64,000 nucleotides of DNA from a virus: IMG/VR virus record IMGVR_UViG_3300017991_000060, positions 1 to 64,000 of that record; one strand, 5' to 3'. The notes below the pieces were generated by a model. It searched no databases. It saw only the letters and a program-made list of their open reading frames with translations, and was not told where the DNA came from. The position numbers and the translations under genes are program-made. Shown here one piece after another: positions 5,575 through 42,335 of this stretch. Positions within the stretch are counted from its first letter, which is position 1. Each line of letters begins with the position of its first letter.

Positions 5575-5850
5575 CTAGAAGTCCACCATCGCGCGGTGGA
5601 ACCTATCCTCTGGTGTGGAGAGGGTCTTCCTCAGTATGGGTCCGATCCCGGCGATGTAGGCGATCTCCTCCGGGTTCCCCCCAGCCGCCACCACCCTCTT
5701 CTTGAGTCGCCCCTTCGCGAGCTGGAGCGCCCTCCAAGAGTGCACGCCGCGGGGGCCGTCGAAGGTTCGCGTCCTGAGGTGGTAGTAGCAGGGGCCGGGG
5801 AGGGAGAACACCCAGGCCCGGTCCTCGGGGGAGAGGTCGGAGAGGCTCAT
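5575..5850 (-). CDS. Hypothetical protein ending FHRAMVDF
   Basis: ORF track; ATGA coupling. Confidence 0.65.
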   Translation of the reverse strand: MSLSDLSPEDRAWVFSLPGPCYYHLRTRTFDGPRGVHSWRALQLAKGRLKKRVVAAGGNPEEIAYIAGIGPILRKTLSTPEDRFHRAMVDF

Positions 5851-6356
5851 TGCTCGGCCACCTCCGCCACCGCCTGTTCCACGTAGACCCGACGGGGAGG
5901 GGCCTTCCCCGCGGGCCAGCGTCGCATCACCTCCGCCACCACATCCACGGGCGTGGCGGGATCGCGCTCCGGGTTGAGCGGGCCGACGTGGGGCTTGGAC
6001 ACGACCTCGCGGGCGATGCGAGATGCCACCCGCCGTTCCTCCCCGGCGCGCTCCACCTCATCCCGCGCGGCTTCCTTCGCCCCTTCCTGAAGCTCGCGCC
6101 GTGTCCTCTCCAGTTCATCCCTGGTGTCCTGGAGCTCCACCTCGACGGCCTCCCGGCGCTCCTCCGCGTCGTGTAGGCGCGTCTCGTTCCGGTCCGTCCT
6201 CACCACGGCCCAGGCCGCGATGAACGCGGGGATGGACGCCACCAGGATGGGGCGCACCCACTTCTCCGCCCACCCCGCGCGATCCACGAGCTCTACCTTC
6301 CGCACGCCCTCCGGCTCCGGGCCGGGCTTCTCCACCGAGTACCCCATCCGTCCCAT
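5847..6356 (-). CDS. Membrane-anchored coiled-coil protein
   Basis: Hydrophobic segment ILVASIPAFIAAWAVV followed by a coiled coil. Confidence 0.6.
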   Translation of the reverse strand: MGRMGYSVEKPGPEPEGVRKVELVDRAGWAEKWVRPILVASIPAFIAAWAVVRTDRNETRLHDAEERREAVEVELQDTRDELERTRRELQEGAKEAARDEVERAGEERRVASRIAREVVSKPHVGPLNPERDPATPVDVVAEVMRRWPAGKAPPRRVYVEQAVAEVAEQ

Positions 6357-6360
6357 CTTC

Positions 6361-6789
6361 CTACCGCACCTCGCGGGCGAACACCTCGAACGCCTGGATC
6401 ATAGCATCCAGGTGGGCGTCATCGATGGTGGTCCCGCGCCCCGAGCACGTCACGTCCCGGCCGTTCACGGTGAACCCGAGGTCCACGACTTCATCCCCGT
6501 CGGGGAGGTGGCGGCCCTTCACCGCGATCCGCCCTACCCGGTCCAGGAACTCCTTCACGATGGCGGGGAGGGGCCGCTCGTTCGTGTACACCCCGGCGAT
6601 GGGGGTGGGCTGCCGCCCGGCCTCCTGGCCCCGCCGGAAGCCCTCCTCAAACCCTTTGGCGTGACCTACCTCGTAACCCTTGGCCCAAGGGATTTCCAGG
6701 GGGGCCTTTGGGACCTCCCCCAGTTGTACCACGTCCCCGTCCACCGTCATCCGTACGTTCTCGTTGGTCGTCAACTTGTCCTCCGTCAT
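6361..6789 (-). CDS. Hypothetical protein
   Basis: RBS GGGAGG before ATG 6789. Confidence 0.6.
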   Translation of the reverse strand: MTEDKLTTNENVRMTVDGDVVQLGEVPKAPLEIPWAKGYEVGHAKGFEEGFRRGQEAGRQPTPIAGVYTNERPLPAIVKEFLDRVGRIAVKGRHLPDGDEVVDLGFTVNGRDVTCSGRGTTIDDAHLDAMIQAFEVFAREVR

Positions 6790-6791
6790 CG

Positions 6792-7031
6792 TCACCTCCC
6801 CGTGCGGCGGCCCGGCCGGATTCGAGGGGCTCGCCACTTCGCGTGTTTTTGAGGTAGGGTTATCCTCCCCACCATCCCCTCACCACATCCACGAGGCCCT
6901 TCCCCGCGGCGTACATCAGGAACAGCACCGGCCATCCGGAACACTCCAGACGAGGCAGCTCCAGTCCGGCGGGGGCAGTTGCAGTAGCCGTCGTGGTCCC
7001 AGTCCCGGTCCTCTAGACTCGCCCCTGTCAT
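6792..7031 (-). CDS. Small hypothetical protein
   Basis: ATGA overlap with the HNH gene stop. Confidence 0.4.
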   Translation of the reverse strand: MTGASLEDRDWDHDGYCNCPRRTGAASSGVFRMAGAVPDVRRGEGPRGCGEGMVGRITLPQKHAKWRAPRIRPGRRTGR

Positions 7032-8061: not shown

Positions 8062-8958
8062 TCAGAAGGGCTCATCAGCATCGGGCATCGTCGGAGCGAT
8101 CCCGCCGGACTCCTCCACCGGCTCGGGCGTCACCACCTCCGCCTCGACCGGCCGTGCGGAGTCGGCGTCGAGGACCTGGGCACGCGCTGTGGCGCCCGCC
8201 GCGAGAGAGGAGAGGAGCGTGCGGACCGTCTCGCGCTCCGCGGCCGAGATGGAGGAGGGCACCTGGAGCACCTCGTCTCGGCCGGAGTACTGGTCGAGCG
8301 GCGAGCCCGCGGCGACCTGGGCGGGCGGCGTCTTAGCCTCATCGATGGCGAGCTTGATGGCCTTGAGCACCATGTCCTCCCCCGTCTTGAGCTCCGCGAG
8401 AGTCTGACTCGCGATCCCTACGAGGTCCTTCGTCGGTGTGGGGCCGCCGTTCTCTCCGCCCTGGGTGATACGCCAGTCCGCGCCGAGCTCCCGGTTCGTC
8501 GCGTCGAGTCTGGCGACGGCCTGGCCGTGCAGTTCGAGCCGCGCGGAGATGAGCCCGAGCAACGCGACGCGGAGACGGTCGCGCACCGGCCCGGCCATGA
8601 TGTAGGCGGCGACCTCATCGGCCAGCGACGCCACGAACTCGGGTCGGGCCTCCAGGTGCGAGGCGACGACGCGGACTAGCTCGCCTGGCGGAGCTTGGCG
8701 AGACGAGCTTGCCGAGCTCTCCCCGTTGCTACAACCGGCCGGGAGCCCAGTGCGGGCGCGGGATACGGGCGGGGCAGAGGCATCCTGACTGAACAGGCGA
8801 GCGTACCGAGCCGCTGTGTACCCGTGCGTTTGCAGATGAGCCTTCGTCAACCGCTTGAACCGCTTCCCACACAACTGGCAGACCACCCCGTTGTCTGTAC
8901 GCGCCTTGCGAGTCGCTTTCTTTCTGGGCTTCCCCGACATATTGCTCTTGCCCGCCAT
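8062..8958 (-). CDS. Ros/MucR-like zinc-finger protein with C-terminal DEPF
   Basis: VVCQLCGKRFKRLTKAHLQTHGYTAARY; GGAGG before ATG 8958. Confidence 0.6.
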   Translation of the reverse strand: MAGKSNMSGKPRKKATRKARTDNGVVCQLCGKRFKRLTKAHLQTHGYTAARYARLFSQDASAPPVSRARTGLPAGCSNGESSASSSRQAPPGELVRVVASHLEARPEFVASLADEVAAYIMAGPVRDRLRVALLGLISARLELHGQAVARLDATNRELGADWRITQGGENGGPTPTKDLVGIASQTLAELKTGEDMVLKAIKLAIDEAKTPPAQVAAGSPLDQYSGRDEVLQVPSSISAAERETVRTLLSSLAAGATARAQVLDADSARPVEAEVVTPEPVEESGGIAPTMPDADEPF

Positions 8959-9177
8959 ATACTGTCCTCCATATACATCGGTCCACATGCATGTCTCGGT
9001 ATACCCTACGACATATGTGCCCCGCAATGGAAGAGTTTGTAATGAGGTTTTGAATACTAGGATGTCTGAATACGGCTCTATACCTACATTCCTTCGTGCC
9101 TGTTCGTGGGGATATTCTCTGGTGGGGATCCGATTGAAGTCAGCAGGTTGGTGGAGGTTGGTGGAGGTCAGTGGGGG

Positions 9178-10501: not shown

Positions 10502-11356
10502 CTAGCCCTTGGGCGTCACCTTCTCCATCCATCTCTCCCGCTCGGAACGAGGGAGAACGTTCCACGTCTCCGCCGAGAGCTTGTCCCAATCGGTGTGGTC
10601 GATGTGGCCCGTCGGCTTGCCGCCGAAGAAGTGGGTGACTTGCCACTCGACGCCGGGGCGCGTGCTCGGGTGGAGCACGTACTGCCGTCCGCCGCCAAGC
10701 TCGACCACGTAGATGTCCTTGTCCGAGTACACGTCCATCAGGTGGGCGTCGAAGAGGTCGCGCGCCTTCTTCATGTTCATCGGGTCGCGCGGGTCCAGGG
10801 GCACGAGGTCGTACCGCCTCACCTCGGCCGAGGTGAGGGGGCGGTCGTAGACCAAGACGCCGTGCTTGAAGCGCGGGTTGGAGCTCTTGCGCGTGCGGAC
10901 CCAGCCCTTCTCGGGGGAGCCGCCAGAAAGGATGGGACGCGCCCACACCCCGTACTCGAACTCGCGGGCCAACGCCCCCTCGCTCACCTCGTACGTGTAA
11001 GTGGGCTCGGCGTCCTCGGTGATCTCGCCCTCGCGCACCTTGACAGAGATGTCCGGCACGCCCGCGGCAAGGGCGCGGTCCGCGAGGAGCTTCTTGTTCT
11101 TCGTCGCCCAGGGCACGCCCTTCAAGTCGGAGATGGTGCGGGCGAAGGCGAAAGCGTGGGCCTTCTTGCTGTAGGAGCCGATGACGATGCCGCCGGTGGG
11201 GAGGTGGATCACCGGCCACGGGCTCCCGTACACGTCGGGCATGGCGGCCTTCCGGTTGAAGGTGGCGATGTGCGGCCCGAACAGCCAGCCCTTCACCTGG
11301 AGCCCGGCCTCTTCCCACGCCGGGCCAAGCGTAAACGTCCCTGCCCTCGCCTTCAT
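10502..11356 (-). CDS. Modular protein with DarA C-terminal-like (defence against restriction) domain
   Basis: YGVWARPILSGGSP...FKHGVLVYDRPLTSAEVRRYDLVP; internal ITE..TYTYEVSE. Confidence 0.7.
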   Translation of the reverse strand: MKARAGTFTLGPAWEEAGLQVKGWLFGPHIATFNRKAAMPDVYGSPWPVIHLPTGGIVIGSYSKKAHAFAFARTISDLKGVPWATKNKKLLADRALAAGVPDISVKVREGEITEDAEPTYTYEVSEGALAREFEYGVWARPILSGGSPEKGWVRTRKSSNPRFKHGVLVYDRPLTSAEVRRYDLVPLDPRDPMNMKKARDLFDAHLMDVYSDKDIYVVELGGGRQYVLHPSTRPGVEWQVTHFFGGKPTGHIDHTDWDKLSAETWNVLPRSERERWMEKVTPKG

Positions 11357-11358
11357 CC

Positions 11359-12225
11359 CTACCTCCTGATCTCCAGGTTGTACTCCTCGGGCAAGCCGGA
11401 GTCGATGAGCCAGTCGATGAGCTCGTCGTCCGTGTACTCGTCTCCGTCGAAGGCGAGGGGGGTGAGCTCCTCGCGCACCTCCGGCACGAAGTACCGCTTG
11501 AGGTCCAGGCGCGTGACATCCCGTCGGTCGAGCTCCTCGTGGTCGTCGAAGTAGTAGAGGACCCTCCACGCACGAGTCAATTGGGGGTCGCCCGACTCGA
11601 ACGTCGGCACCGGATCACCGCGCCGGTGCATGATCTCCATCATGTCCTGGACGATGCTCCTGGGCGTCACCGTCTGGACGTGCTTCCACACGCCGGGCGG
11701 GAGCGCCTCGACGGGCGCGAAGAGGATGTAGGAGGGCGGGATCTCGTCGGCGTTGGAGGCGAGGAAGGCCATCGGGTCGTCCAAGGGGGCCTTGCTCGTC
11801 GAGTGGGGGTCCGGGATGGTGTACATCGGGAGGTTCGGCTTGGCGGTGATGCTGTAGATGTGGACTGGGCGGTCCGGGGAAAGGAACGGCTCGCCGGAAC
11901 CTGGGTGCTCGTCGGCGGCGAGGCGGCCGACCCATGCCGGGCCGGTGCCTGAGTCCGAAACGTGCAAGCCGTAGAAGCCGGGGAGGCCGTACTTCACCAT
12001 GTCGATGGGGAGGGTGAGGGGACCGGACTCCCTACGGCCGGTGTCCACCCGGTCGAACTTCCGGCCCGAGCGCACGGCCCTCGGGGTGGCATTCGTCCAC
12101 CCGCTTCGGACGTGGGTACCAAGCACGCGGGCATCCATCGCCTTGGCGTTGGGGAACCCGGCCGCCGCAGCGTACGCATCCCGGTTGGTGCGACGCCACC
12201 GTACCTCCTGGAGCCCAGTGTCCAT
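11359..12225 (-). CDS. Hypothetical protein with N-terminal LQE
   Basis: ORF track; coupled in the cluster. Confidence 0.7.
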   Translation of the reverse strand: MDTGLQEVRWRRTNRDAYAAAAGFPNAKAMDARVLGTHVRSGWTNATPRAVRSGRKFDRVDTGRRESGPLTLPIDMVKYGLPGFYGLHVSDSGTGPAWVGRLAADEHPGSGEPFLSPDRPVHIYSITAKPNLPMYTIPDPHSTSKAPLDDPMAFLASNADEIPPSYILFAPVEALPPGVWKHVQTVTPRSIVQDMMEIMHRRGDPVPTFESGDPQLTRAWRVLYYFDDHEELDRRDVTRLDLKRYFVPEVREELTPLAFDGDEYTDDELIDWLIDSGLPEEYNLEIRR

Positions 12226-12963: not shown

Positions 12964-15900
12964 CTACTTCCTCAACCGCCGTTTCCGGCGCTTCCTTGGC
13001 GGTCCCGACTTGTGGTCCGACTCGTGATCGAAGGCGGCACGGTTCGCCAGGTTCCCCGCCGCGTTGTTCCTGGTGTTCCCATCCTTGTGGTGAACGTGCT
13101 TCCCGTCCCCCACACGGGCCTTGCCCTTCTTGATGAGCTTGTACCGGGCGCGGTTCCTCGCGCATCGGTCGTCCTTCCGAGCGCGCGTCTCGCGGGCGTA
13201 CTCGGCGCGGTAGTCCCGCTCGCGCTCCTGGAGCCGTGACCCTTCCCGCCACTTCGAGCCGAGGTCCGTCAAGCCGGAGGGCGGGATGCTCTTGAGCCCG
13301 TGGTGGCGCTTGATCTCCTGGAACATCGCCGTGGCAACACCGCGCCGGCGGTGCTCCTCGGGGACTTCGATGTGGTCGATGCGCGCCGTGCCGTCATCGA
13401 AGTACGAGTACTCCACCTTCCCCACCACGCGCCCGGCGTGGTCTCGGGCGATGAGGCCCATGTAGTGCTGCCCCTGGTAGCTGTCCGTGTGGAGGTGCTC
13501 GAAGCGGAGCCCGAGGGCCGGCATGATGGCCGGCTTGCCGTGCCGCTTCTCCAGGTAGCGGAGGATGGTGTCCTCGCTCGGGGAGGTGGGCGCGTGCTCC
13601 AGGTGCAAGCGCCCGCCCTTCCAGGAGGCGAAGCGCCCGCCCCCCATCCAGAGGAGGTCCAGGGCCACCCCGTCCGTCCAGAGCTTCGCGGACTCCGCCG
13701 GCCGCCGCGCGAGGAAAGCGTCGATGACCTTCTTGTGCGCCGGCGTGAGCTCGATGCGCTCCATCACGATCTCTCGCCCGTGTAGGTACCCCTTTGCGGC
13801 GAAGTCCTGATGCAGCGCGAGGGCATCCGGGGTGCGGTCGTCAGAGACGAGCAGCTTGCCGCCCTGCTCCCTAGCCCACCGCGCGGCGTGGCGGTACATC
13901 TTCGTCGCCCATCCCCTACGTTGGAAGGCGGGCCACACCATCACGTTGCTCACCTCGAACCCGCCCGGCACGGGCACGACAGCGATCTCCCCCACCTCCT
14001 TCCCACCGTCCCGGAAGATGAACTGGTGCTTGCCTCCGTAGCTGGCGTGCTGTATCGCCGCTTCGGTGAGCCCGCCGCCGTGGGCCTTGTGCACCGCCAT
14101 CACGGCCGGAACGGCGCGCCTCACCACGTCCTCGGCCGGACCATCCAGGACCAGGAGACCCATGCGCGCGAGCATGGGGAGGGTGTAGGGGGGCGAGATG
14201 CGGTACCGTCGGCTCACCGGGTCCTTCATCCACCCGCGCTTGCCGCGCTTCTCCCGCGCGAGCCACTGGTCGCAGTCGTCGTTCGGGTTCGAGGGGGTGA
14301 GGTGGCCTTGCTCGTCGTCCATCTGATGCTTCGTCACGTCCGGGCGCGCGGTGTCGTAGTGCTTCCAGACACGGTACGCCGCGGGGGAGAGGTCCTGGCG
14401 ATCCGAGATGAGCCCACCGCCCATGATCGAGGCGAGCTCGATGGCCACGTCGTAGAGTAGCGGCCCGAAGCCGTGATCGGAGCGAGAGAAGTCCACCTCC
14501 CAAGCACCATCGCACGGCGTCTCCGGGTTGTCGATGCGCGCGATGGTGATCCGGCCCGCGGGGCGCGCGGCCGGGGAGTCAGCCTCCAGGTCCCAGTACT
14601 GGGTGAGGATGATGTTGTTCCCGGCGCGGACCCAGACCCCTACACCGGGCGGGAGCGCCTGGGGTCCCTTCGCCGCTTCGGTGAGCGCGCCGCGGATGGT
14701 GTCCTCGCGGTCGCCGCCGTCGATCACCAGGCGGTCCATGCGCGCCAACATGGGGAGGGTGTAGGGAGGGTCGATCACGTACCGGCGAGAAATGGGGTCC
14801 TTCACCCACCCGCGCTTGCCGTACTTCTGCCGCGAGAGCGCCTGGTCACAGTCGTCCTCTGGGCGCGCCGGCGTCAGCGTCCCGTACTCATTGTCGAGCT
14901 GGTGCTTCTCCACGTCCGGCCGCTTGGTGTCGTAGTGCTTCCAGACTTTCCGCGCCGAGTTGGAGACGGACCGGCGATCCGAGATGAGGCCGCCGCCCAG
15001 GATCGAGGCGACCTCCACCGCGGCGTCGTAGAGGAGCGGCCCGAAGCCATGCGTCGCCCCGGACATCTTCACCTCCCACGCACCCTCGCACGGCCAGATG
15101 CTCTCGACGCGATGGAACGTGATCTCCCCCTCCAAACCTGGCCGCTCGGACGGCTCCCCAGTTTCGAGGTCACAGTAGTACACCTTGCTGATGTAGTTAC
15201 CGGCGCGCACGCCGATTCCGATGCCCGACGGGAGGTCGCGCGGCCCCTTCGCCACCTCGTCGAGCGCGGCCACCCGCTCCCGGATGTGTAGGCGTTCAGT
15301 CAGGTCAGCCCGGAGGGCGTCCTCGGCCTCCGCCATCTCCCAGGGGTCCAAAGGTCCAGCGAAGTCGCTCGGCTGCATGTCGGTGTGCTTCGCGAGGCGC
15401 TTCACCACTGACGGGATGTGCGGCCCGTTGTAGTAGAGGCGGCCCGCCTTCGCGAGCGCACGCATCGTGCTCCTCGGGTCCTTCTGGGAGCGCCGGAAGC
15501 GGCGGGACAGGGCGCTCAGGTGCCACGGGTCCGCGTCATCCTCGGCCGATCCCTGGTCACAGTCGTCGCTCGGGTCCTGGGGGGTGAGGTCGCCGTATTG
15601 GTTGTCGAGCTGTGCCTTCGTCACGTCGCGGCGGCGCTTGTCGTAGTAGCCCCAAACGCGGGCGGCGTCACCGGACACCGTGACCCGATCCGACATGAGC
15701 CCTCCCCCAGCCGCGGTGGCGAGCTCCATCGCCACGTCGTACAGGAGCGGCCCCCATCCACGGCCCGCCTCAGCGCCGGACACCATGAAAGCATCGCTAC
15801 ACGGGCCGTGCCCGCCGCGATCAATGCTCACCTCACCGCGCATCTCGGCCTCATCCTCAGCGGCGATGTCCCAGTACACCACCTGGAAGGAGTTGGGGCT

Positions 15901-17067: not shown

Positions 17068-17201
17068 GAGACACATCCTCCTAGCCCGCCACGATACCAG
17101 ATGCGGCGGCTTAGTTCACGCTGTTGGGCGGGTCGCGTACGCGCACGCCAGGCACTTGCTCGACTCGGGGTCGATGGGTTGGCGCTGCTCGGGTTGATCG
17201 C

Positions 17202-17465
17202 TCATTCGGTCGCCCCCTCTACGGCTTCCACGTCTCCGATGTTGTCTTTCCACTCGCACGCGATAGCGGCGTTCGCCGTCATCATGGCCATCCGCACCTT
17301 GCGGATGGCCGCGCTCTGATCCGGCCCGGCCGGGGTCATGTTCAGGATGATCTTCGCGAAGGCCCGCGCGCCGTCGCGCAACGCCTCGTAGCGTTCCGCC
17401 TGGTCCCTGTCCGGGGGATGGTACGTGAACCAGGTATCCAAGTCTCGTTCGGTGAGAATCCTCAT
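17202..17465 (-). CDS. Acb2/Tad1-hairpin-like small protein (candidate immune-signal sponge)
   Basis: WFTYHPP..DQAERYEALR...AIRKVRMAMMTANAAIA family pattern, recognised from memory. Confidence 0.55.
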   Translation of the reverse strand: MRILTERDLDTWFTYHPPDRDQAERYEALRDGARAFAKIILNMTPAGPDQSAAIRKVRMAMMTANAAIACEWKDNIGDVEAVEGATE

Positions 17466-17504
17466 CGTTCGCTTCTCCTCCCTACCCATCAAGTGCTTAT
17501 CCTC

Positions 17505-17795
17505 TCAGAAGTCCGTCATCGCTTGCTGTAAGATGGGACGCTTCGCAGGTGAACCGTAGAATCCCTCACATACGCCAGGCGTAGGGGGGCTCGGCGGCAA
17601 CGCCCGCTCCGCGTCGTCCGCCCCCTCCAGGAACCGGGAGAGCCGGTCGCGGAGGTGACGCGCACCGTGTTGGTCGAGGGCCACCCGGAACACCTCGCGG
17701 GTCAGCGGGTCCGAGGCGGCCAAGATGAACTCGTCGCGGGACGCCCACCCCGACCCGCTGTAGGTGAGGCCGCTCGGAGAGACGTGGGAGCTCAT
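17505..17795 (-). CDS. Hypothetical protein ending LQQAMTDF
   Basis: ATGA coupling. Confidence 0.6.
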   Translation of the reverse strand: MSSHVSPSGLTYSGSGWASRDEFILAASDPLTREVFRVALDQHGARHLRDRLSRFLEGADDAERALPPSPPTPGVCEGFYGSPAKRPILQQAMTDF

Positions 17796-18184
17796 ACAAT
17801 GTCCTCCCGCTTGTTCCAGGGCATGGGGGTCCCGTTCGCAACCCACTCGTCCACAAAGTCCCAGGTACCATCGAACCGGAAGCCGCGGTCATCCGCGTAG
17901 GCCACCGCGCCGGGCTTCTCCCCTGCCGCCACGGCGTCCACCTCGATGCCGTGGAGGTCGAGCCACTGCTTCACGGCCCGCACGCCACCCGGCTCATTGC
18001 AGCGCGCCGACATCACCACCACGTCGAACCGTTCGCGGAGCTTCGCCACCGCCTCTCGGGCGCCGGGCACCGGCCCGTCGCAGACCGTCTCCACATCCAC
18101 CCAAGGGGACGTGTAGGCATGGATCACGCCGTCGAAGTCGAGGACTACGGCACGCCGCGTGCCCGTCGGGGGCATCCAAACCAT
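17792..18184 (-). CDS. HAD-family phosphatase (nucleotidase/PNKP-like)
   Basis: VVLDFDGVIH; VVVMSAR; KPGAVAYADDRG. Confidence 0.8.
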   Translation of the reverse strand: MVWMPPTGTRRAVVLDFDGVIHAYTSPWVDVETVCDGPVPGAREAVAKLRERFDVVVMSARCNEPGGVRAVKQWLDLHGIEVDAVAAGEKPGAVAYADDRGFRFDGTWDFVDEWVANGTPMPWNKREDIV

Positions 18185-18984
18185 CACGCGCCCCCGTTGA
18201 AGATAGCCGCGCGGAGCCGCTCCCCGTTCACGTCGTCGGCCTTGACATCCCCCACGGCCCACAGGAGGGCCTCCCTGATCGTAGGGGAAGCCCTCTCCGC
18301 CACCTTCCGCACCTTGGCCTTGGAGGGGCGCACCGACGACTTGCGCCGCCGCCTAGGCTTCCCGGAGGGCGTCGGGGCGGGGAGGTCCTCCTCCGCCAGC
18401 TTCGCCTCCTGGTCCTCGCGGCTCATGGTGGTGTAGGGCTTCGCGGCGGCCATCGTCATCTGGCCGCGCTCGACGGCCCGGCGCACCGGCGGGGAGAGGT
18501 CGAGAAGAGCGAGGTACCGCTTCACCTGGATGGAGCTCAGCCCCCACGCCGCGGCGGCCTCGTCCACCGTGCGGCCGGTGTCCAGGTACCGCTGCATCTT
18601 CTCGGCCTTCTCCATCAGGGTGTCGCCCCTACGGAGCTCGTTCAGGAACACCATCATGTCGATGATGCGGTCGTCGCTCCCGCGCTCCACCTCGCACGGG
18701 ACCATGAGGCGCTCGCCGCCCATCTCCTCCAGGCGGCGGTTCGCCTCGCGGCAGTTGATGACCCTACGGCGGCCGTCCACCACCTCGATGGAGTCACCGT
18801 TCTTCCGCACCTTGATGGCGACCTTCACCCCAAACGACATCATGTTCCGCACGATCTTCTCGTCCGGCGGGAGGTTCACCCGAGGGTCGTAGAGCGGGTG
18901 CGCCCTGTCGGTGATGAGCGTCAGGATGTCAGGGTCCAGGAGGAACGCCTGACGCCGCTTCCCCGGAAGTGCCTGGCCTCCCAT
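18184..18984 (-). CDS. ParB/Spo0J-like protein
   Basis: HPLYDPRV...IEVVDGRRRV; HTH-like region. Confidence 0.75.
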   Translation of the reverse strand: MGGQALPGKRRQAFLLDPDILTLITDRAHPLYDPRVNLPPDEKIVRNMMSFGVKVAIKVRKNGDSIEVVDGRRRVINCREANRRLEEMGGERLMVPCEVERGSDDRIIDMMVFLNELRRGDTLMEKAEKMQRYLDTGRTVDEAAAAWGLSSIQVKRYLALLDLSPPVRRAVERGQMTMAAAKPYTTMSREDQEAKLAEEDLPAPTPSGKPRRRRKSSVRPSKAKVRKVAERASPTIREALLWAVGDVKADDVNGERLRAAIFNGGA

Positions 18985-19316: not shown

Positions 19317-19511
19317 TCATATCTCGCCCGCCTTCCTCATTCGCTTCAACATCTTCCCGGCCGCTTCGGGCTCCATGCCGGTGAACTCCTCCACATCGAC
19401 AACGAGGTCCTCCCAGGCATGTCGCCTTGACTCATGCTCATTCTGTAGGGCCTGCCACCGTCCGCGAATCCACGACTTCATCATCGCGAGGTTGAACTCG
19501 TCGGTGCCCAT
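19317..19511 (-). CDS. Small hypothetical protein
   Basis: ORF track; coupled. Confidence 0.55.
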   Translation of the reverse strand: MGTDEFNLAMMKSWIRGRWQALQNEHESRRHAWEDLVVDVEEFTGMEPEAAGKMLKRMRKAGEI

Positions 19512-19780
19512 CAGAAGTCCGTCATCGCTGCGCTGAAGTTGTCGCGGCTAGCGTCGCTCTCCAGCATGTGCCTCGGTACCCCTACGGCCTTGCCAATCTC
19601 GGTGAGCGCCTGCCTCGGCGGCACGTCCACCGGGGCTGGAAGGCGCTTCAGGCTGGCGGGGTCGTGGCAGCACTCGCCGGGTTCAACGGCGTCGGCGCGC
19701 GCCTGGGGGCACTCGATCAGCTCGCCGCGCTCGCGACACAGAACCCTACAGAACCCACCGCCCCAATGTCCACAAGGCAT
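19511..19780 (-). CDS. Cys-rich hypothetical protein ending FSAAMTDF
   Basis: GGAGGAG before ATG 19780, downstream of a promoter. Confidence 0.6.
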   Translation of the reverse strand: MPCGHWGGGFCRVLCRERGELIECPQARADAVEPGECCHDPASLKRLPAPVDVPPRQALTEIGKAVGVPRHMLESDASRDNFSAAMTDF

Positions 19781-24142: not shown

Positions 24143-24167
24143 GGCCTGGCCCTCCTTCGTCGCCAGT

Positions 24168-24500
24168 TTACTCGAACCCGTCGAGCATAGCATCGTGTAG
24201 GGCGGGCGGCTTCGGCCGCTTCGCCTCCACCGGACAGAAGCACTTGTCCGGGTATACGCACCGGCACGGCTCAGGAGGATCGGGGGCGGCCGGTCGCGCC
24301 TCAGCCTCGGCCAGCTTCTCCCGGAGCCACGCGATGTTCCGCTCGGAGTGCTTGATGGCTTCGTAGATGTGCGCCTTGAAGTGCTCGGGGCAGAGGTTGA
24401 CGGCCGAGGCAACACTGTGCCCCCACCCCCTGGGCATCTCCTCGGCCTCCACGGTGACGTGGCAGACGTAGCACCCCCAAGTCCTCATCCGTTCCTCCAC
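24168..24500 (-). CDS. Cys-containing hypothetical protein ending LHDAMLDGFE
   Basis: ORF track. Confidence 0.55.
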   Translation of the reverse strand: MEERMRTWGCYVCHVTVEAEEMPRGWGHSVASAVNLCPEHFKAHIYEAIKHSERNIAWLREKLAEAEARPAAPDPPEPCRCVYPDKCFCPVEAKRPKPPALHDAMLDGFE

Positions 24501-24727
24501 CTGTCCAGGAGGCGATGACCTTCCAGGAAGCGGGCGGCCTCGCTGCGCGTGAGCTGCTCGCAGAACAGCCGCCCCTCCTCATCATCACACTCGGCCCTGG
24601 TGTTCGCCGCATTGATGGCAGCGAGTACCGACGCGGCGCATTGGTGCCTGTTGTAGGTCTCGCCCACGTACAAACCGCATATCGGGCAATAGTCTTCTGG
24701 GCGATAGGTAGCGCCGCGTGTCCTCAT
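24485..24727 (-). CDS. Small zinc-finger-like hypothetical protein
   Basis: CPICG...HQC. Confidence 0.5.
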   Translation of the reverse strand: MRTRGATYRPEDYCPICGLYVGETYNRHQCAASVLAAINAANTRAECDDEEGRLFCEQLTRSEAARFLEGHRLLDRWRNG

Positions 24728-28921: not shown

Positions 28922-29160
28922 ACAGGTGCGTTCTCCTCGACCCATCGCGCATGGTAGCGGATGAAGGCCGTGCACGAAATGCCGAGGTCCTCGGACATCT
29001 CACGTAGGGTCCACGTACCACCACCCCGCTTCACCGTCCGGGCAGCGAGGTACTCCTTGAACCTGTCGAAGCCTAGCTCGCGAATGGCTACTAGGATGTC
29101 CTCCTGCGCGGCGTGAAGGGGCGATCCCAGCGGACACACCTTGTCTTTGAAGCGCGGCAT
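28918..29160 (-). CDS. Small HTH protein
   Basis: WTLREMSEDLGIS. Confidence 0.6.
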   Translation of the reverse strand: MPRFKDKVCPLGSPLHAAQEDILVAIRELGFDRFKEYLAARTVKRGGGTWTLREMSEDLGISCTAFIRYHARWVEENAPV

Positions 29161-35899: not shown

Positions 35900-36256
35900 T
35901 CAGTATCGCGTTTTCCTAAACTGAATGAAAGGGGTCAGCGAAGGATGGTCAGCGACTAACATCCGGGCGATATACGCCGTGTAGTTGTTGTTCACCTTGT
36001 AGTCCAGCCCGTAGGTGAACGTCACCTCCCAACGCACACGCTCTGCCAACAGCTTCACACCGAATCGCCGCCCCTTCGTGGACATCTCCAACGCAAACCT
36101 AATGAAGAGTCGATAAACGTCGGGATTCGCGGTGATCCACTTCTCCGCGGCCCTCCGAAGGTCCTCTCCAAAAGGGTTGTTCTCCCGCGCCGGTCCTACG
36201 TCATCCGGGTCAGGGATGCCGCCGAAGCCACCAACCATCGCGTCATGAAAGTCCAT
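35900..36256 (-). CDS. Conserved-looking phage hypothetical protein
   Basis: LLAERVRWE...YKVNNNYTAYIAR. Confidence 0.65.
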   Translation of the reverse strand: MDFHDAMVGGFGGIPDPDDVGPARENNPFGEDLRRAAEKWITANPDVYRLFIRFALEMSTKGRRFGVKLLAERVRWEVTFTYGLDYKVNNNYTAYIARMLVADHPSLTPFIQFRKTRY

Positions 36257-38713: not shown

Positions 38714-38723
38714 CCGGGGGAAA

Positions 38724-40148
38724 CTAGAACGGCTCATCCTTGCTGCCGGGCTGGGACGAGTTCCAACCCTGCTGGAAGTCGTAGCCGCCACCGACAGCGG
38801 GCGGCCCGTTCTGACCCTGGGGAGCGGCCGGGGGAGCGGCCTGACCCTGGGGAGCGGCCGGGGGCTGGCTCGGGGGAGCCGGGGTAGCCGGGGGAGGGGC
38901 CTGGGGTTGCGCCGGAGGAGCGGCCGGGGGCATCTGGGCCGGGTTCGGGGCCTTCGGCACGGACTCCAAGGGGGTGCCTCCGAACGTAGGGGGCTGGGGA
39001 GCCGTCTGCTGCGTCGGGGGCGGCGGGGGTGCCTGGGCACCGGCGGGCGGCTGAACGCCCGGAGGAGGCGGCGGCGTGGCGGCCCAGGGGGGCGGAGCGG
39101 GGGGAGTGCCCGGAGCCGCGGGCGCGGGCGGAGTGGCCGGGGCCTGGGGCTGTGCCGGGGGAGCGTGCGCCGGAGCCGGAGGCCCTACGTGCGTCGGCGG
39201 GGCCTGGGGCGCTGCCGGGGCCGTGCCGGGGAAGGGCGGGGGAGCTGCCGGGGCGGCCGGGGGCTGGCTCGGGGGAGTGGGCGGGTTGTACGCCGGGACC
39301 TGGCCCGGCATCACCGCGCCGGGGGCCGGGGCGAAGCCGCCAGGAACGCCCGCACCGGGAGCGCCGGGGATCGGGGGCGCAGACTGCCACCCCCCACCGC
39401 CGCCCTGGGCACCGAGCTGGCCCTCCAGGTATCCGACGAACTGCGACGCCTCCTCGGGCTTGTAGGTCCCGATCTCCTGCCCGTAGTCGATGGGAGAGAT
39501 GAGCTCAGCCACCGTCGCGGCGTGGTCCTTCGGCTGTTCGCCGCGCCGCTGGGAGCTCTCCATCATGCCCTTGATGGCCGGGGAGTACCAGAAGTGCTCC
39601 GTCGGGTTCACCACCCCGAGGTCGGTCCAGTGGTCGCCGTGCTTCGCGCTCGTCTGGGGCTTACCCTTCGGGGCCTGGGACCTGTAGACCTTGAACCGGC
39701 GGAACTTCATCTGCCCGTACGTCCTAGCGAGGTGGGAGAAGGAGTCGAAGCCCTTGGCGTCGAGCTCCAGGAGCATCTTCATGTCCTTGTACTGCTTGTT
39801 GTTGTAGGTAAACTCCCGCTCGTCGATGATCGTCACGTACGCGAGCCCGTCCCGGCCGATCTTCCGGGGGTACTTGAGGGAGGCGTTGCAGACGAGGCAC
39901 TCGCGCGGGCAGGGGTCCTTGTTCCCGTCGGGGTTCCAGCCCCAGCACGTCTGCCTCATCCGCGCCGCTACGTTGTCGCGGCGGAGGAACAGCTTGTGAC
40001 GGACGACCCGCACGGGCGGCTCATCCAGGATGGTGATGGTCGTCTCGCCCCCAGGCGGGAGCCAGAAGATCCTCGGTCCCTTGACGGCGCGGCCCTTGTC
40101 TACGTTCAGGTCGCCCGCCTGACCATAGCCTCTCGGCAGTTCCGGCAT
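38724..40148 (-). CDS. Single-stranded DNA-binding protein (gp32-like) with long Pro/Ala/Gln/Gly tail
   Basis: IFWLPPGGETTITILD; CP..C.VC; acidic-PF C-terminus KDEPF; position next to polA. Confidence 0.65.
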   Translation of the reverse strand: MPELPRGYGQAGDLNVDKGRAVKGPRIFWLPPGGETTITILDEPPVRVVRHKLFLRRDNVAARMRQTCWGWNPDGNKDPCPRECLVCNASLKYPRKIGRDGLAYVTIIDEREFTYNNKQYKDMKMLLELDAKGFDSFSHLARTYGQMKFRRFKVYRSQAPKGKPQTSAKHGDHWTDLGVVNPTEHFWYSPAIKGMMESSQRRGEQPKDHAATVAELISPIDYGQEIGTYKPEEASQFVGYLEGQLGAQGGGGGWQSAPPIPGAPGAGVPGGFAPAPGAVMPGQVPAYNPPTPPSQPPAAPAAPPPFPGTAPAAPQAPPTHVGPPAPAHAPPAQPQAPATPPAPAAPGTPPAPPPWAATPPPPPGVQPPAGAQAPPPPPTQQTAPQPPTFGGTPLESVPKAPNPAQMPPAAPPAQPQAPPPATPAPPSQPPAAPQGQAAPPAAPQGQNGPPAVGGGYDFQQGWNSSQPGSKDEPF

Positions 40149-40237
40149 CAGTCTTTCCTTCCTGCTGGCTCTGGCGGCTGGCCCACGGCCACCGCTTCCG
40201 AGCACGCTGCACACAGAAACACACACAGTCCGCTGCC

Positions 40238-41284
40238 CTACGTAGGCAACGGTGGTGGATTATACGCGGGTGTCTCCCGCTTGTCAAACGCTAGGTACCG
40301 CGCCTCCCGGTCGGCGCGTATAAGCTCCGCCGCCGTCACGTCCGCCGGGTCCTTCTCACCTGGGAGGGACGCGATGCGGACGGGGAAGTAGGGCCGGAGC
40401 TGCTGCTTCAGGCCGGGGTGCCACTTCCCCTTCGGGTCCTTCCACCCGTGGACGGCGCGCCGCCCGGCCTCATCGTTCTCGTAGATGACGGTGACGGTGC
40501 GCGCCCACTGACGGAGCTTCCTCAGCCGCTCCGGGGTGATGCCCGTCGTCGCCCCGAGGACCCCCAGGACGTTTGGAAGCACGCGGGCCGCCCAGACGGT
40601 GGAGGTACAACCCTCGACGAGCCGGACATGCTCCCGCGTCGGGTCGATAAAGTTCTCGCCGTAGAACACGCCGCGCTTCCACTGGCCTACAGGCTCGTCG
40701 TGGTACTTCGGGGTGATCTCCGGCGAGACGGCGCGCCTGGAGATCCCGACCAGACGGCCTCGATGATCCCGACACGGGAAGGTCGCCCGGCCGCGTTCTG
40801 GATCGTAGCCGATCTGCCACTTCACCACGTCCGAACGGATGATGCCGCGCTTCACCAGGTACTCCGGGACCCCGTTCCGGTAGCACTGGAGCGCGTACCT
40901 CTCCAGCCATTCACCGTAGGTCAGCCGATCAACCTCGGCCGGTGCGCCGGTGCGGATCGCCCTCGCCCTGGACAGAGCGGCGGCGAAGCTCGGCTGGTCA
41001 TTCTCAGCGGTGAAGGCTACCGCGGCGGCGAGGCCGCCGATGTCCGCCTCAGCCTGGGCGAACACGGACGAGAGGGTACCCGCCACTTGGCAGCGGTGGC
41101 AGTAACAAGAGGACGGCCCAGCCGTGTTCACCAAGACGGAGAGCGTCGGGGTGCCCTTGTCGCCCGGCGGGTGCCGCCTTGGGTCGAGGTAGTAGGGGCA
41201 ACGGATATGGACGTTCTCCGCCTTCGCCCGGTCGATGGGCGAGTCGGTGATCCGTGCGAGCTCGTGAATCAAGAGGCGGTCCAT
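40238..41284 (-). CDS. DnaG-like Toprim primase with Zn-binding domain
   Basis: CP..CYCHRC; FPCRDHRGRLVGISRR; LVEG; YENDEAG. Confidence 0.75.
   Translation of the reverse strand: MDRLLIHELARITDSPIDRAKAENVHIRCPYYLDPRRHPPGDKGTPTLSVLVNTAGPSSCYCHRCQVAGTLSSVFAQAEADIGGLAAAVAFTAENDQPSFAAALSRARAIRTGAPAEVDRLTYGEWLERYALQCYRNGVPEYLVKRGIIRSDVVKWQIGYDPERGRATFPCRDHRGRLVGISRRAVSPEITPKYHDEPVGQWKRGVFYGENFIDPTREHVRLVEGCTSTVWAARVLPNVLGVLGATTGITPERLRKLRQWARTVTVIYENDEAGRRAVHGWKDPKGKWHPGLKQQLRPYFPVRIASLPGEKDPADVTAAELIRADREARYLAFDKRETPAYNPPPLPT
40259..40289 (-). promoter_or_regulatory. Consensus sigma70 promoter for the SSB-polA operon
   Basis: GT-TTGACA-N17-TATAAT. Confidence 0.88.
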
Positions 41285-41327
41285 CGCTTCCTCGCGCAGT
41301 CAGGGCAGAACCAGGTCAGAGCCTCGC

Positions 41328-41636
41328 CTACTTTCCCTGGGGGGCAGTACCAGAACTCGGCCCATCCGTCGGCCCGTGCGGAGGTGACGTGGGCGGCGTT
41401 GGAACATCCTGCCGCACCACACGAGTAGTAGGGTCCGGGCTCTCCCATGGGATCTCCGTCGCCTCGAACTTCATCCTCTGAACGAGGTGGAGATGCATCG
41501 CCTCCATGCCGCGCTTCACCGCCTGGGCCACTAGCCACCTGAGCCGTTCTCCTTCAACTTCCTCGACCGGGGCAACGAACGTGAGCCGCCGCATCGGCTT
41601 GTCCTGGATGAGCATCACCACCACTTCAAGGGCCAC
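41328..41636 (-). CDS. Hypothetical protein (overlapping alternative Cys-rich frame 41269-41538)
   Basis: ORF track; reading frame ambiguous. Confidence 0.4.
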   Translation of the reverse strand: MALEVVVMLIQDKPMRRLTFVAPVEEVEGERLRWLVAQAVKRGMEAMHLHLVQRMKFEATEIPWESPDPTTRVVRQDVPTPPTSPPHGPTDGPSSGTAPQGK

Positions 41637-41645
41637 GGCAACCTC

Positions 41646-42335
41646 CTAGAAGTCCGTCATCGGGTTGTAGTGCCCGCGGCCCTTGGGGAGTGGGTCCTCC
41701 ACCTCCTCGGGGAGCCGCTCGAACACCGTGTACCATCGCGCCCGGTTGTTCCGCCCGGTACCAACGCCGACGACGGCGACCTCCTTCCCCCACTTGCCAG
41801 GGTGCGGCCAGATGTAGTCGAGGACACCCACCCGTCCTCCGGGCTCGACGCACCGGAGGCACCGCTTCAGGAGGTCGTTCAGGTCGCTCGGGAACACCTC
41901 GGCCGGGACGTTGTAGTGCTCGTGGTCCGCCGCGGTGTAGGGGCGGTCGATCATGATGGCGGGCCACAACGGAACTTGCTTCTGCCGCATGTACTCCGTC
42001 GAAACAGAGGATGTGCGCCGAGCCCCGATCACAACGAAATCCGGCCGCGGGTAAAGATCCTCACTGCCCACGCCGATCCGGCGCGCGTCCATGAGGTAGT
42101 CGGGCTCGGTGGCCGGGTCCAAGTCCAACGTGCGGTCGTGCGGCCCGAAGCCGCGGTAGAGGTTCTTCTTCACAAGCCCGGCGCAGACGTGGAGCACCGG
42201 GTCCTCCCACCGCACGCCGAGGAGCTGGCGGGCGCGGTGAAGGAACCCGGCCGGGTACGCGCCGTAGTAGCGGGCTCCGTCCCGGAGCTTCGCGCGGGCG
42301 AGAATCCACACGTCACAGATGGGCCGGTAACTCAC
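41646..42335 (-). CDS. Putative DNA methyltransferase ending NPMTDF
   Basis: YYGAYPAGFL; VLHVCAG; TLDLDP; IMIDRPY (DPPY-like). Confidence 0.6.
   Translation of the reverse strand: MSYRPICDVWILARAKLRDGARYYGAYPAGFLHRARQLLGVRWEDPVLHVCAGLVKKNLYRGFGPHDRTLDLDPATEPDYLMDARRIGVGSEDLYPRPDFVVIGARRTSSVSTEYMRQKQVPLWPAIMIDRPYTAADHEHYNVPAEVFPSDLNDLLKRCLRCVEPGGRVGVLDYIWPHPGKWGKEVAVVGVGTGRNNRARWYTVFERLPEEVEDPLPKGRGHYNPMTDF

What the first reader, a model, noticed from the sequence alone, without database searches (positions are those of the whole stretch)
5575..41672. Five unrelated proteins end in a PIP-box-like M-[TV]-D-F tail, two of them methyltransferases
Seen: C-termini FHRAMVDF (5575), ILQQAMTDF (17505), FSAAMTDF (19511), FGAAMTDF (24727, MT-A70) and YNPMTDF (41646, putative MTase). 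Stops differ (TAG, TGA, TGA, TAA, TAG), favouring protein-level selection. Related: LHDAMLDGFE (24168) and FHDAMVGGF (N-terminus of 35900-36256). Known: the p21 PCNA-binding PIP box is QTSMTDFY, and T4-type clamp partners use C-terminal hydrophobic peptides. Inference: a shared docking tag, possibly tethering DNA methyltransferases and small regulators to a sliding clamp. A degron is an alternative. No clamp gene is visible in this window.
Basis: partly seen in the sequence, partly recalled or inferred. Interest (0 to 1): 0.8.

Follow-up and report, generated by a model that had tools for sequence, protein, structure and literature searches.

The report
Shared docking tail on phage DNA enzymes
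Eight otherwise unrelated DNA-handling proteins of a 118-kb uncultured phage, including two DNA methyltransferases and a Holliday-junction resolvase, carry the same short A-M-x-D-F peptide on a floppy linker at one end. Relatives keep this peptide, so it is most likely an address tag that hooks them all onto one DNA-bound partner, which I could not identify.

Summary
The pattern ATG-RYN-GAY-TTY-stop occurs 5 times in the window (0.01 expected). These are its only occurrences in the 117,865-bp virus genome, and all five are gene ends.

I found three more carriers:
- a small Zn-finger protein ending ...AMLDGFE;
- a small protein translationally coupled to the family-A DNA polymerase, with the motif at its N-terminus;
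- a RusA resolvase at 101.6 kb, outside the window, also with an N-terminal copy.

Selection acts on the protein, not the DNA:
- MT-A70 orthologues down to about 50% identity keep the tail on a diverged linker, with synonymous codon changes.
- A second methyltransferase family and the RusA orthologues keep the tail or its variants (...ALDF, ...ALEGF, ...MEGGF).
- AlphaFold2 models the MT-A70 tail as disordered.

Copies at either terminus argue against a C-degron, an SSB tip or a PDZ-type ligand, and fit a clamp-type docking peptide. The closest sequence matches are RB69 polymerase ...DMFDF and T4 ...SLDFLF.

The genome encodes no clamp and no clamp loader, and its replicase is PolA. The partner is therefore unidentified. 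Host beta clamp is my first guess at about 0.4. PolA, the ParB-like protein or an unknown hub are alternatives.

This scan has noted similar methyltransferase tails in other phages, all of which had their own clamp.

Verdict: a new variant of a known kind.

The parts
5575..5850 (-). Carrier 1: 91-aa protein of no known family. Its C-terminal tail is F-H-R-A-M-V-D-F (tail codons 5578-5601).
   Evidence: The ATGA start overlaps the upstream gene. GC3 is 0.83-0.97.
17505..17795 (-). Carrier 2: ~96-aa protein of no known family, ending L-Q-Q-A-M-T-D-F after a basic K-R-P stretch.
   Evidence: The likely start is the ATG at 17795, which overlaps the upstream stop.
19511..19780 (-). Carrier 3: ~89-aa Cys-rich small protein ending F-S-A-A-M-T-D-F. 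Its stop overlaps the next ATG (TGATG).
24168..24488 (-). Carrier 4 (variant tail): ~106-aa Zn-finger-like protein ending L-H-D-A-M-L-D-G-F-E.
   Evidence: coding GC3 0.77-0.97, whereas the overlapping 23594-24415 frame has GC2 0.9 here. Its orthologue begins at the end of contig L044.
24727..25494 (-). Carrier 5: MT-A70-family N6-adenine DNA methyltransferase (255 aa) with a ~28-aa disordered linker and the tail F-G-A-A-M-T-D-F.
   Evidence: PF05063 E 5e-20 and phrog_359. Orthologues keep the tail. AF2 gives pLDDT <50 for residues 228-255.
35900..36256 (-). Carrier 6: 118-aa protein (phrog_13625, unknown function) with the motif at its N-terminus (M-D-F-H-D-A-M-V-G-G-F, then a G/P/D linker). 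It is translationally coupled to PolA.
41646..42335 (-). Carrier 7: phrog_3816-type DNA methyltransferase (229 aa). The core ends at ...FERL and is followed by a 24-aa extension ending Y-N-P-M-T-D-F.
18184..18984 (-). ParB-like protein (G-R-R-R motif, HTH_ParB, basic linker) lying between carriers 2 and 3. It is a candidate hub. Alternatively it may be a ninth carrier, because its own C-terminus (...L-R-A-A-I-F-N-G-G-A) is motif-like.
   Evidence: literature PMC13229309 and PMC12704722
36256..38664 (-). Family-A DNA polymerase (802 aa), the phage replicase. It is a candidate hub by analogy with T7 gp5. It carries no copy of the motif itself.
   Evidence: PF00476 E 8e-57
38724..40148 (-). SSB-like protein, assigned by architecture only: ~265-aa N-domain, ~220-aa P/A/Q linker, and the tip ...S-K-D-E-P-F. 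This is a different tail class from the A-M-x-D-F motif.
   Evidence: No Pfam, PHROG or PDB hit.

Best explanation
The A-M-x-D-F peptide has the fuller form hydrophobic-x-x-A-[M/L/I]-x-[D/G]-F. It is a short linear docking motif that sits on a disordered linker at the extreme C- or N-terminus of at least eight phage proteins that act on DNA: two DNA methyltransferases, a RusA resolvase, a polymerase-coupled small protein and four small, partly Zn-finger, proteins. It tethers all of them to one common DNA-bound hub, so that methylation, junction resolution and regulation happen where phage DNA is being copied. By its behaviour the motif belongs to the clamp-binding class of peptides. The phage encodes no clamp, so the most likely hub is the host beta sliding clamp, as shown for phage Mu MuC/Mor. 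Shown here: the motif, its terminal position, the disordered linker and its conservation in orthologues. Inferred: that it docks at all, and on what. My odds are about 0.85 for a docking peptide and about 0.4 for a sliding clamp as the hub.
For: The motif is strongly non-random and occurs only at gene ends.

It is conserved in orthologues of three unrelated families:
- MT-A70: P0133 (82% identity) ...AAMTDF; P0134 ...DAMVDF; P0135 and P0136 ...AAI[MA]DF; more distant ones ...ALEDF...ALEGF...ELDGF...ALGF...ALDF. The terminal F is invariant in the alignment while the linker is not alignable.
- phrog_3816 methyltransferases: 9 of 12 homologues with a C-terminal extension end in aromatic-acidic tails such as ...EALDF...NAFDF...MEGGF.
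- RusA: N-terminal L-R-A-A-M-T-D-F in P0254 and ...A-M-A-E-G-F in P0255.

Codons differ between orthologues (GAT TTT versus GAC TTC; ATT, ATA or CTA for the hydrophobic residue). AF2 models the MT-A70 tail as disordered.

The same motif works at either terminus, as clamp-binding motifs do. Hda carries its motif N-terminally, Pol II and Pol IV C-terminally (review PMC11139829), and MuC carries one at both ends (PMC12867686).

The carriers are typical clamp clients. T4 gp43, gp55 and gp33 share a hydrophobic-acidic C-terminus on a divergent flexible linker (PMC2988020).

Sequence likeness, verified here: RB69 gp43 ends ...D-M-F-D-F, and T4 gp43 and gp55 end ...S-L-D-F-L-[FY]. A phage-display peptide ending ...L-D-F binds E. 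coli beta clamp at low micromolar affinity, and the hexameric motif class Q-phi-x-[LM]-x-[FL] allows any residue before the last one (PMC11139829).
Against: No binding was shown. No clamp or clamp loader is encoded in the 118 kb, and the replicase is a family-A polymerase, which does not normally use a clamp.

The motif fits the beta-clamp consensus only partly. Q is present in 1 of 8 carriers. T occupies the [L/M] position in four tails. The motif looks more like gp45/PCNA-type peptides, whose clamp is absent here.

Tail variants differ between related phages. This fits a co-evolving phage-encoded hub at least as well as a conserved host pocket.

The host is unknown. The record is cut at its left end, and another assembly is ~6 kb longer, so absence of a clamp gene is not absolute.
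Confidence: 0.42

Rival explanations
1. The tails dock on a phage-encoded replisome protein, most plausibly the family-A DNA polymerase. This would parallel T7, where the tails of helicase gp4 and SSB gp2.5 both end in D-F and bind the polymerase gp5.
For: T7 gp4 ends ...N-D-T-D-F and gp2.5 ends ...E-D-G-D-F. The C-terminal Phe is essential and binds the polymerase (PMC12339929 and its references 41 and 42). This phage has PolA, a DnaB-like helicase, a DnaG-like primase and a loader. Carrier 6 is translationally coupled to PolA. Tail variants differ between related phages, as expected for a co-evolving phage partner.
Against: The phage's own helicase and SSB-like protein do not carry this motif; the SSB-like protein ends ...D-E-P-F. 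The tails are not acidic runs. N-terminal copies, where F is not the last residue, are conserved, whereas the T7 system relies on the terminal Phe. Eight clients competing for one site on the replicase seems awkward.
Confidence: 0.18
2. The hub is the phage's ParB-like protein. It would act as a CTP-switch clamp that loads only on phage DNA, serving as a private tool-belt that directs methyltransferases and other enzymes to phage DNA.
For: A ParB-like gene with a G-R-R-R motif and HTH_ParB lies between carriers 2 and 3. Phage ParB homologues activate cognate DNA-modifying dioxygenases that carry an essential C-terminal extension (PMC13229309). ParB-CTPase folds are often fused to DNA methyltransferases in phages (PMC12704722).
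Against: The evidence is only neighbourhood and analogy. ParB's own C-terminus looks motif-like, which suggests it is a client rather than the hub. There is no precedent for RusA or polymerase-associated proteins as ParB partners. This was not tested here.
Confidence: 0.1
3. The tail is a degradation tag that times the removal of early and middle proteins by a host or phage protease.
For: Short, conserved C-terminal hydrophobic tails on disordered linkers are typical of degrons. The carriers are non-structural proteins.
Against: The same motif is conserved at N-termini, followed by G/P linkers, in RusA orthologues and in carrier 6. It matches no known ClpX, ClpA or Lon tag class, as far as I know from the established literature. 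All carriers act on DNA, which points to localisation rather than turnover.
Confidence: 0.07
4. The tail is a capsid-targeting or packaging signal for proteins injected with the DNA, as in the phage P1 Dar system.
For: The phage has a DarA_C-domain protein (PF18789) and giant multi-enzyme proteins. Carriers 1 and 2 lie among them. P1 DarB is a packaged methyltransferase (established knowledge).
Against: A RusA resolvase and a polymerase-coupled protein are unlikely cargo. Two carriers sit inside the replication module. No virion gene carries the motif. Known phage capsid-targeting signals are N-terminal and are cleaved off.
Confidence: 0.04
5. What is conserved is a DNA element (the 12-mer ATGACGGACTTC), acting as a regulatory or translational-coupling site rather than as a peptide.
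For: Four copies are identical at the DNA level, and all lie at gene junctions.
Against: With GC3 near 85%, M-T-D-F is almost forced to be encoded by this 12-mer. Upstream motif residues use different codons. Orthologues and N-terminal copies encode the motif with other codons. The stops and downstream spacers differ.
Confidence: 0.01

Closest known systems
C-terminal clamp-binding peptides of T4/RB69 (gp43, gp55 and gp33 binding the gp45 clamp)
   Same: Several unrelated proteins share a hydrophobic-acidic terminal peptide on a divergent flexible linker. RB69 gp43 ends ...D-M-F-D-F, the same M-x-D-F-COOH pattern as here. T4 ends ...S-L-D-F-L-[FY], compared with ...A-L-D-F in relatives here (PMC2988020).
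   Different: T4 and RB69 encode the clamp and its loader and use a family-B polymerase that carries the peptide itself. This phage has no clamp or loader gene, uses PolA, and its polymerase lacks the peptide. Its clients include methyltransferases and RusA.
Bacterial beta-clamp-binding motifs (Q-L-[SD]-L-F; Q-phi-x-[LM]-x-[FL]), including phage Mu MuC/Mor, which use the host clamp
   Same: These are short motifs in disordered N- or C-termini of many DNA-transaction proteins, with a final F. A phage-display peptide ending ...L-D-F binds the clamp (PMC11139829). Phage Mu, which also lacks a clamp gene, uses the host clamp through terminal motifs at either end (PMC12867686).
   Different: Q is mostly absent here. 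In the main form, T occupies the position where L or M is expected. Binding is untested and the host is unknown.
PIP box (p21 Q-T-S-M-T-D-F-Y; DNMT1-PCNA coupling of methylation to replication)
   Same: The M-T-D-F core is identical to that of p21. The concept of a clamp-tethered DNA methyltransferase is the same.
   Different: Here there is no second aromatic residue, Q is present in only one carrier, and neither bacteria nor this phage has PCNA. The p21 and DNMT1 facts are from established knowledge and were not checked here.
T7 gp4 and gp2.5 acidic tails ending in Phe, which bind the family-A polymerase gp5
   Same: The endings are ...T-D-F and ...G-D-F, and both phages have a family-A replicase.
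   Different: The T7 tails are long acidic runs on replisome subunits and depend on the terminal Phe. Here the tails are not acidic runs, sit on non-replisome enzymes, and also occur N-terminally.
SSB C-terminal tip (D-D-D-I-P-F type)
   Same: It is a terminal Phe tag that organises DNA enzymes. Two other proteins of this phage (the SSB-like and MucR-like proteins) end in ...D-E-P-F.
   Different: The SSB tip is one tail read by many partners. It has a penultimate Pro and needs the free carboxylate. The A-M-x-D-F motif is many tails read by one presumed partner, has no Pro, and also works N-terminally.
ParB-dependent phage DNA-modifying enzymes (5mYOX with ParB)
   Same: A phage DNA-modifying enzyme with an essential C-terminal extension depends on a phage ParB homologue (PMC13229309). 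This phage has a ParB-like gene among the carriers.
   Different: No shared short motif is described for that system, and the link here is only neighbourhood.

Membership tests
PIP box (PCNA-interacting peptide) | Q at position 1 of Q-x-x-[ILM]-x-x-[FY]-[FY] | tested here: not met
   Only carrier 2 (Q-Q-A-M-T-D-F) has Q in register. The other carriers have H, S, G, Y or D there.
PIP box (PCNA-interacting peptide) | Aliphatic residue at position 4 and an aromatic pair at positions 7-8 | tested here: not met
   M and one F are in register, but the chain ends after F. In the N-terminal copies S or G follows F. There is no second aromatic residue.
PIP box (PCNA-interacting peptide) | A PCNA-type clamp is available | tested here: not met
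   PF00705, PF02916 and PF09116 give no match in the genome. Bacterial hosts lack PCNA (established knowledge).
Bacterial beta-clamp-binding motif | Sequence Q-phi-x-[LM]-[FL] or Q-phi-x-[LM]-x-[FL] (PMC11139829) | tested here: inconclusive
   The final F is invariant, and the penultimate D or G is allowed in the hexameric class. Position 4 is T (4 carriers), V or L in this phage, and L in relatives with ...ALDF. Q is mostly absent.
Bacterial beta-clamp-binding motif | Located in a disordered terminus or loop; works at the N- or C-terminus | tested here: met
   AF2 pLDDT is <50 for the MT-A70 tail. N-terminal copies are conserved in RusA orthologues. G/P-rich linkers follow the motif.
Bacterial beta-clamp-binding motif | Binds the hydrophobic pocket of the beta clamp | not testable with these tools
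See Tried and rejected for the single co-fold job.
T4/RB69 gp45-clamp clients | Shared hydrophobic-acidic terminal peptide on a divergent flexible linker in several unrelated proteins | tested here: met
   Compare RB69 ...DMFDF and T4 ...SLDFLF.
T4/RB69 gp45-clamp clients | The phage encodes a gp45 clamp and a gp44/62 loader, and the polymerase carries the peptide | tested here: not met
   No PF02916, PF09116 or PF13177 match. PolA ends ...W-G-D-A-H. Caveat: about 6 kb of the genome is missing from this record.
T7-type acidic Phe tails | Long acidic run ending in an essential C-terminal Phe, carried by helicase and SSB | tested here: not met
   The tails have at most 1-2 acidic residues. The helicase ends ...G-G-G-D-G and the SSB-like protein ends ...D-E-P-F. 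In the N-terminal copies F is not the last residue.
SSB C-terminal tip | Acidic residues, then [IL]-P-F-COOH with a free carboxylate | tested here: not met
   The A-M-x-D-F tails have no Pro, and N-terminal copies exist. The feature is met only by the two separate ...D-E-P-F proteins.

The most novel reading that the evidence does not exclude
A phage with no clamp and a family-A polymerase runs its own tool-belt. The A-M-x-D-F peptide would dock methyltransferases, a resolvase, a polymerase accessory protein and small regulators onto a phage-encoded hub that is not a classical sliding clamp. The most concrete candidate is its ParB-like CTP-switch clamp, which loads only on phage DNA, so that modification and repair would be confined to 'self' phage DNA.
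Probability: 0.12. Interest if true: 0.9.

Novelty: new variant of a known kind. Interest (0 to 1): 0.62.

Why it matters
If the tails dock on a hub at the replication fork, this phage couples protective DNA methylation, junction resolution and probably gene regulation to DNA synthesis through one exchangeable eight-residue tag.

I found no paper describing shared docking tails on phage DNA methyltransferases. This scan has noted them in several large phages that encode their own clamp. The present case adds a phage that has the tags but no clamp and a PolA replicase. Either the host clamp is hijacked on a large scale, as recently shown for a single Mu transcription factor, or a new kind of hub exists.

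The motif is short, conserved and testable. A peptide pull-down would identify the partner directly. The tail could also serve as a portable recruitment tag or as a lead for clamp-blocking peptides.

Tried and rejected
1. Co-fold (the single complex-prediction job). I paired Caulobacter beta clamp, as a stand-in for the unknown host's clamp, with the MT-A70 tail (alignment A3, residues 211-255). ipSAE was 0.03 and 0.02 against a mark of 0.32. The tool's verdict was 'no answer', so this is neither support nor evidence against binding.

I could not fetch the longer contigs of the close relatives or the 124-kb assembly. The planned test, whether the tail variant co-varies among the clients of one genome, could not be run.

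3. Collection scans for relatives:
- IMG/VR holds no close relative.
- DNA-pattern scans for the tail gave only chance hits.
- The metagenome scan gave short contigs. L044 is syntenic with window 24.2-31.5 kb, but it ends 54 codons into the orthologue of carrier 4.
- The genome-contig scan gave one distant Leptospirales MAG hit, which gives no clue to the host.

4. Search for a cryptic clamp among unknown proteins:
- 27893-28975 (360 aa) looks ParB/KorB/DUF3102-like rather than clamp-like.
- The other mid-size unknown proteins had no Pfam or PHROG clamp hit.

5. The AF2 model of the SSB-like N-domain from a single sequence was unusable (pLDDT 33.6). A PDB sequence search found nothing.

6. About 1.2 Mb of loci from more distant phages showed no multi-copy tail of this kind. 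The phenomenon is therefore specific to this clade.

7. A BRC/RAD51-type F-x-x-A reading, with the UvsX-like recombinase as hub, was considered. I dropped it as unsupported beyond a four-residue likeness.

Full report
**What the window is.** The window is the first 64 kb of a 117,865-bp IMG/VR virus record with 66% GC, estimated about 95% complete. Nearly all genes are on the minus strand.

The left end cuts a gene (ORF 3..455). Another assembly of the same phage is 124,239 bp, so roughly 6 kb are missing from this record.

The region holding the finding contains these genes:
- giant multi-enzyme proteins (NUDIX..., GNAT/HNH) and a DarA_C protein;
- a ParB-like protein;
- an exonuclease and a UvsX-like recombinase;
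- a helicase, an AEP primase-polymerase and a family-A DNA polymerase;
- an SSB-like protein;
- a DnaG-like primase;
- a DnaB-like helicase with a DnaC/IstB-like loader, and a UDG.

**Check of the observation.** All five tails are present as described. The degenerate pattern for M-[T/V/..]-D-F plus a stop has 5 hits against 0.01 expected. Across the whole genome, on both strands and in all frames, it occurs only at these five gene ends.

DNA similarity around the tails is confined to about 15 nt. With GC3 near 85%, M-T-D-F is nearly forced to be ATG-ACG-GAC-TTC. The upstream motif residues use different codons. The carriers are otherwise unrelated.

Two carriers are DNA methyltransferases: MT-A70 (PF05063) and a phrog_3816 type. 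The two 'related' sequences are real genes. 24168-24488 has the coding GC3 signature and ends ...L-H-D-A-M-L-D-G-F-E. 35900-36256 begins M-D-F-H-D-A-M-V-G-G-F at an ATG overlapping the PolA stop, with a Shine-Dalgarno sequence in front.

**New carriers and the N-terminal form.** A motif scan of all predicted proteins found a RusA-family resolvase outside the window (genome 101111-101626, PF05866, E 6e-20).
- Its GTG start overlaps the upstream stop (GTGA).
- It begins V-T-P-D-L-I-R-D-A-M-L-D-F, followed by a G/P-rich linker.
- Its two orthologues (73% and 71% identity) begin with ...L-R-A-A-M-T-D-F and ...L-R-A-M-A-E-G-F.

The motif therefore works at either terminus and does not need a free carboxylate. 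This makes eight carriers, all non-structural. No virion gene carries the motif.

**Conservation.**
- Among MT-A70 homologues, the nearest ones keep the tail: 82% identity ...AAMTDF, 69% ...DAMVDF, 59% and 52% ...AAI[MA]DF. More distant ones have ...ALEDF...ALEGF...WLEGF...ELDGF...ALGF and ...ALDF.
- In the alignment the catalytic core aligns, the 15-50-residue linker does not, and the final F is invariant.
- Most homologues of the second methyltransferase end right after the core (...F-E-R-L, about 180 aa). Of the 12 with an extension, 9 end in the same kind of tail (...EALDF...NAFDF...MEGGF...MDGGFDA...DWGF...GKGF...SEFDL). This tail often follows Zn-ribbon modules and an R-R-R-R stretch.
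- Orthologues encode the tail with different codons.
- AlphaFold2 on the MT-A70 alignment gives a confident core and pLDDT <50 with no secondary structure for residues 228-255.
- The position table gives the consensus [L/F]-x-x-A-[M/I/L]-x-D-F, with D and F invariant in 15 of 15 instances of the main class.

Together these results show protein-level selection on a terminal short linear motif. They dispose of the DNA-element reading.

**What kind of motif it is.**
- Conserved copies at either terminus argue against readers that need the alpha-carboxylate, such as an SSB-tip pocket, a PDZ-like domain, or the T7-type dependence on the terminal Phe.
- They also argue against a C-degron.
- A separate tail class...D-E-P-F, sits on the SSB-like and MucR-like proteins. 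The phage therefore appears to use two distinct terminal tags.
- The behaviour matches clamp-binding peptides: many unrelated DNA enzymes and small regulators, a flexible divergent linker, and use of either terminus.
- The literature supports this. T4 gp43, gp55 and gp33 share a hydrophobic-acidic C-terminus on a divergent linker, and the peptides are interchangeable (PMC2988020). Beta-clamp motifs sit at N- or C-termini or in loops, with classes Q-phi-x-[LM]-[FL] and Q-phi-x-[LM]-x-[FL], and a selected peptide ending ...L-D-F binds at low micromolar affinity (PMC11139829). Phage Mu, which has no clamp gene, uses the host clamp through motifs at both ends of MuC (PMC12867686).
- I verified from the genome records that RB69 gp43 ends ...D-M-F-D-F, that T4 gp43 and gp55 end ...S-L-D-F-L-F-G and ...S-L-D-F-L-Y-E-A-N-D, and that T7 gp4 and gp2.5 end ...D-T-D-F and ...G-D-F.

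**The missing partner.** The genome has no match at E <= 10 to any of these families:

| Family | Pfam accession |
|---|---|
| DnaN, three domains | PF00712, PF02767, PF02768 |
| gp45 N- and C-domains | PF02916, PF09116 |
| PCNA_N | PF00705 |
| clamp-loader delta' | PF13177 |

None of the mid-size unknown proteins looked clamp-like.

The candidate hubs are:
- **The host beta clamp.** The motif fits only partly: Q is rare, and T sits where L or M is expected in four tails.
- **The phage PolA or another replisome protein.** T7 is the precedent, and carrier 6 is co-translated with PolA.
- **The ParB-like protein between carriers 2 and 3.** Phage ParB homologues activate DNA-modifying enzymes that carry a C-terminal extension (PMC13229309), and ParB folds are often fused to phage methyltransferases (PMC12704722). 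Its own C-terminus is motif-like, so it may instead be a client.
- **An unrecognised protein, or a gene in the missing 6 kb.**

The variation of the tail between related phages (A-M in this phage and its nearest relatives; A-I, A-L, S-M or D-W elsewhere) is compatible with a co-evolving phage hub. It is also compatible with the known degeneracy of clamp motifs.

**Limits.**
- The single co-fold job gave no answer (see Tried and rejected).
- The host is unknown.
- Gene calls are my own GC3-based calls.

**Verdict.** The interpretation as a shared docking tag is well supported. Filing it as a PIP box is not supported. Clamp tethering remains an inference without an identified clamp. My odds:

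| Reading | Odds |
|---|---|
| Docking peptide of some kind | ~0.85 |
| Hub is a sliding clamp (host beta) | ~0.4 |
| Hub is phage PolA or another replisome protein | ~0.18 |
| Hub is the ParB-like protein | ~0.1 |
| Degradation tag | ~0.07 |
| Packaging signal | ~0.04 |
| DNA element | ~0.01 |
| Other, unknown hub | the rest |

Earlier notes of this scan describe similar methyltransferase tails in other phages, each with its own clamp. Those notes are unverified leads, not evidence. This case differs in lacking a clamp and in using PolA.

Noticed in passing
window 38724-40148 (-) and 8062-9027 (-): A second terminal tag class. The SSB-like protein has a ~265-aa N-domain with a Cys motif, a ~220-aa P/A/Q-rich linker and the tip ...S-K-D-E-P-F. 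A Ros/MucR-type regulator (PF05443, E 5e-7) ends ...D-A-D-E-P-F. Both resemble bacterial SSB tips. A transcription regulator carrying an SSB-like tip is unusual.
   Followed up: partly
genome 101111-101626 (-) = L183:3112-3627 (-), outside the window: A RusA resolvase with the A-M-L-D-F motif at its N-terminus. The motif is conserved in two orthologues (P0254, P0255).
   Followed up: yes
window 10502-11569 (-): A protein with a DarA_C domain (PF18789, 27.7 bits against a cut-off of 27) and a weak phrog_1926 hit ('released from the phage upon host infection'). This suggests a P1 Dar-like set of packaged anti-restriction proteins next to the giant multi-enzyme proteins (410-3484 and 12964-17076).
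   Followed up: no
window 17202-17492 (-): A 96-aa protein with an Acb2/Tad1 hairpin domain (PF24729, E 2e-12). It is a likely sponge for cyclic-nucleotide immune signals (anti-CBASS or anti-Thoeris) and lies directly downstream of carrier 2.
   Followed up: no
window 43139-44521 (-), residues ~92-100 of the DnaB-like helicase: An internal sequence L-R-V-A-M-E-E-G-F in the N-terminal domain matches the motif pattern. It may be chance, or it may be the helix that the terminal motif mimics.
   Followed up: no
window 18184-18984 (-): The ParB-like protein ends ...L-R-A-A-I-F-N-G-G-A, and its nearest homologue P0259 ends ...F-D-A-I-T-F-A-S-E-T. These are motif-like C-termini, so ParB may be a ninth client.
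   Followed up: partly
window 1-455 and the whole record: The record is cut inside a minus-strand gene at its left end (ORF 3..455, 3' open). The same proteins occur on a 124,239-bp contig elsewhere, so about 6 kb are missing from this record.
   Followed up: partly
window 3469-4782 (-): This 437-aa ORF is not a gene. Its composition is S/L/V/R-rich, typical of a wrong frame. The real genes here seem to be on the plus strand (3565-4224 and 4046-4723), an exception in this minus-strand genome.
   Followed up: no
proteins P0010-P0018 (relatives of the 41646 methyltransferase): In relatives, this methyltransferase is extended by one to three Cys-rich Zn-ribbon modules and an R-R-R-R(R) stretch before the tail. 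The small Zn-finger carriers of this phage (19511 and 24168) may be free-standing versions of those modules.
   Followed up: no
window 24485-24727 (-): An 80-aa Zn-ribbon-like protein lies between two carriers and is translationally coupled to MT-A70 (TAATG). It is 85% identical in the relative contig L044, which is more conserved than the methyltransferase itself (69%).
   Followed up: no
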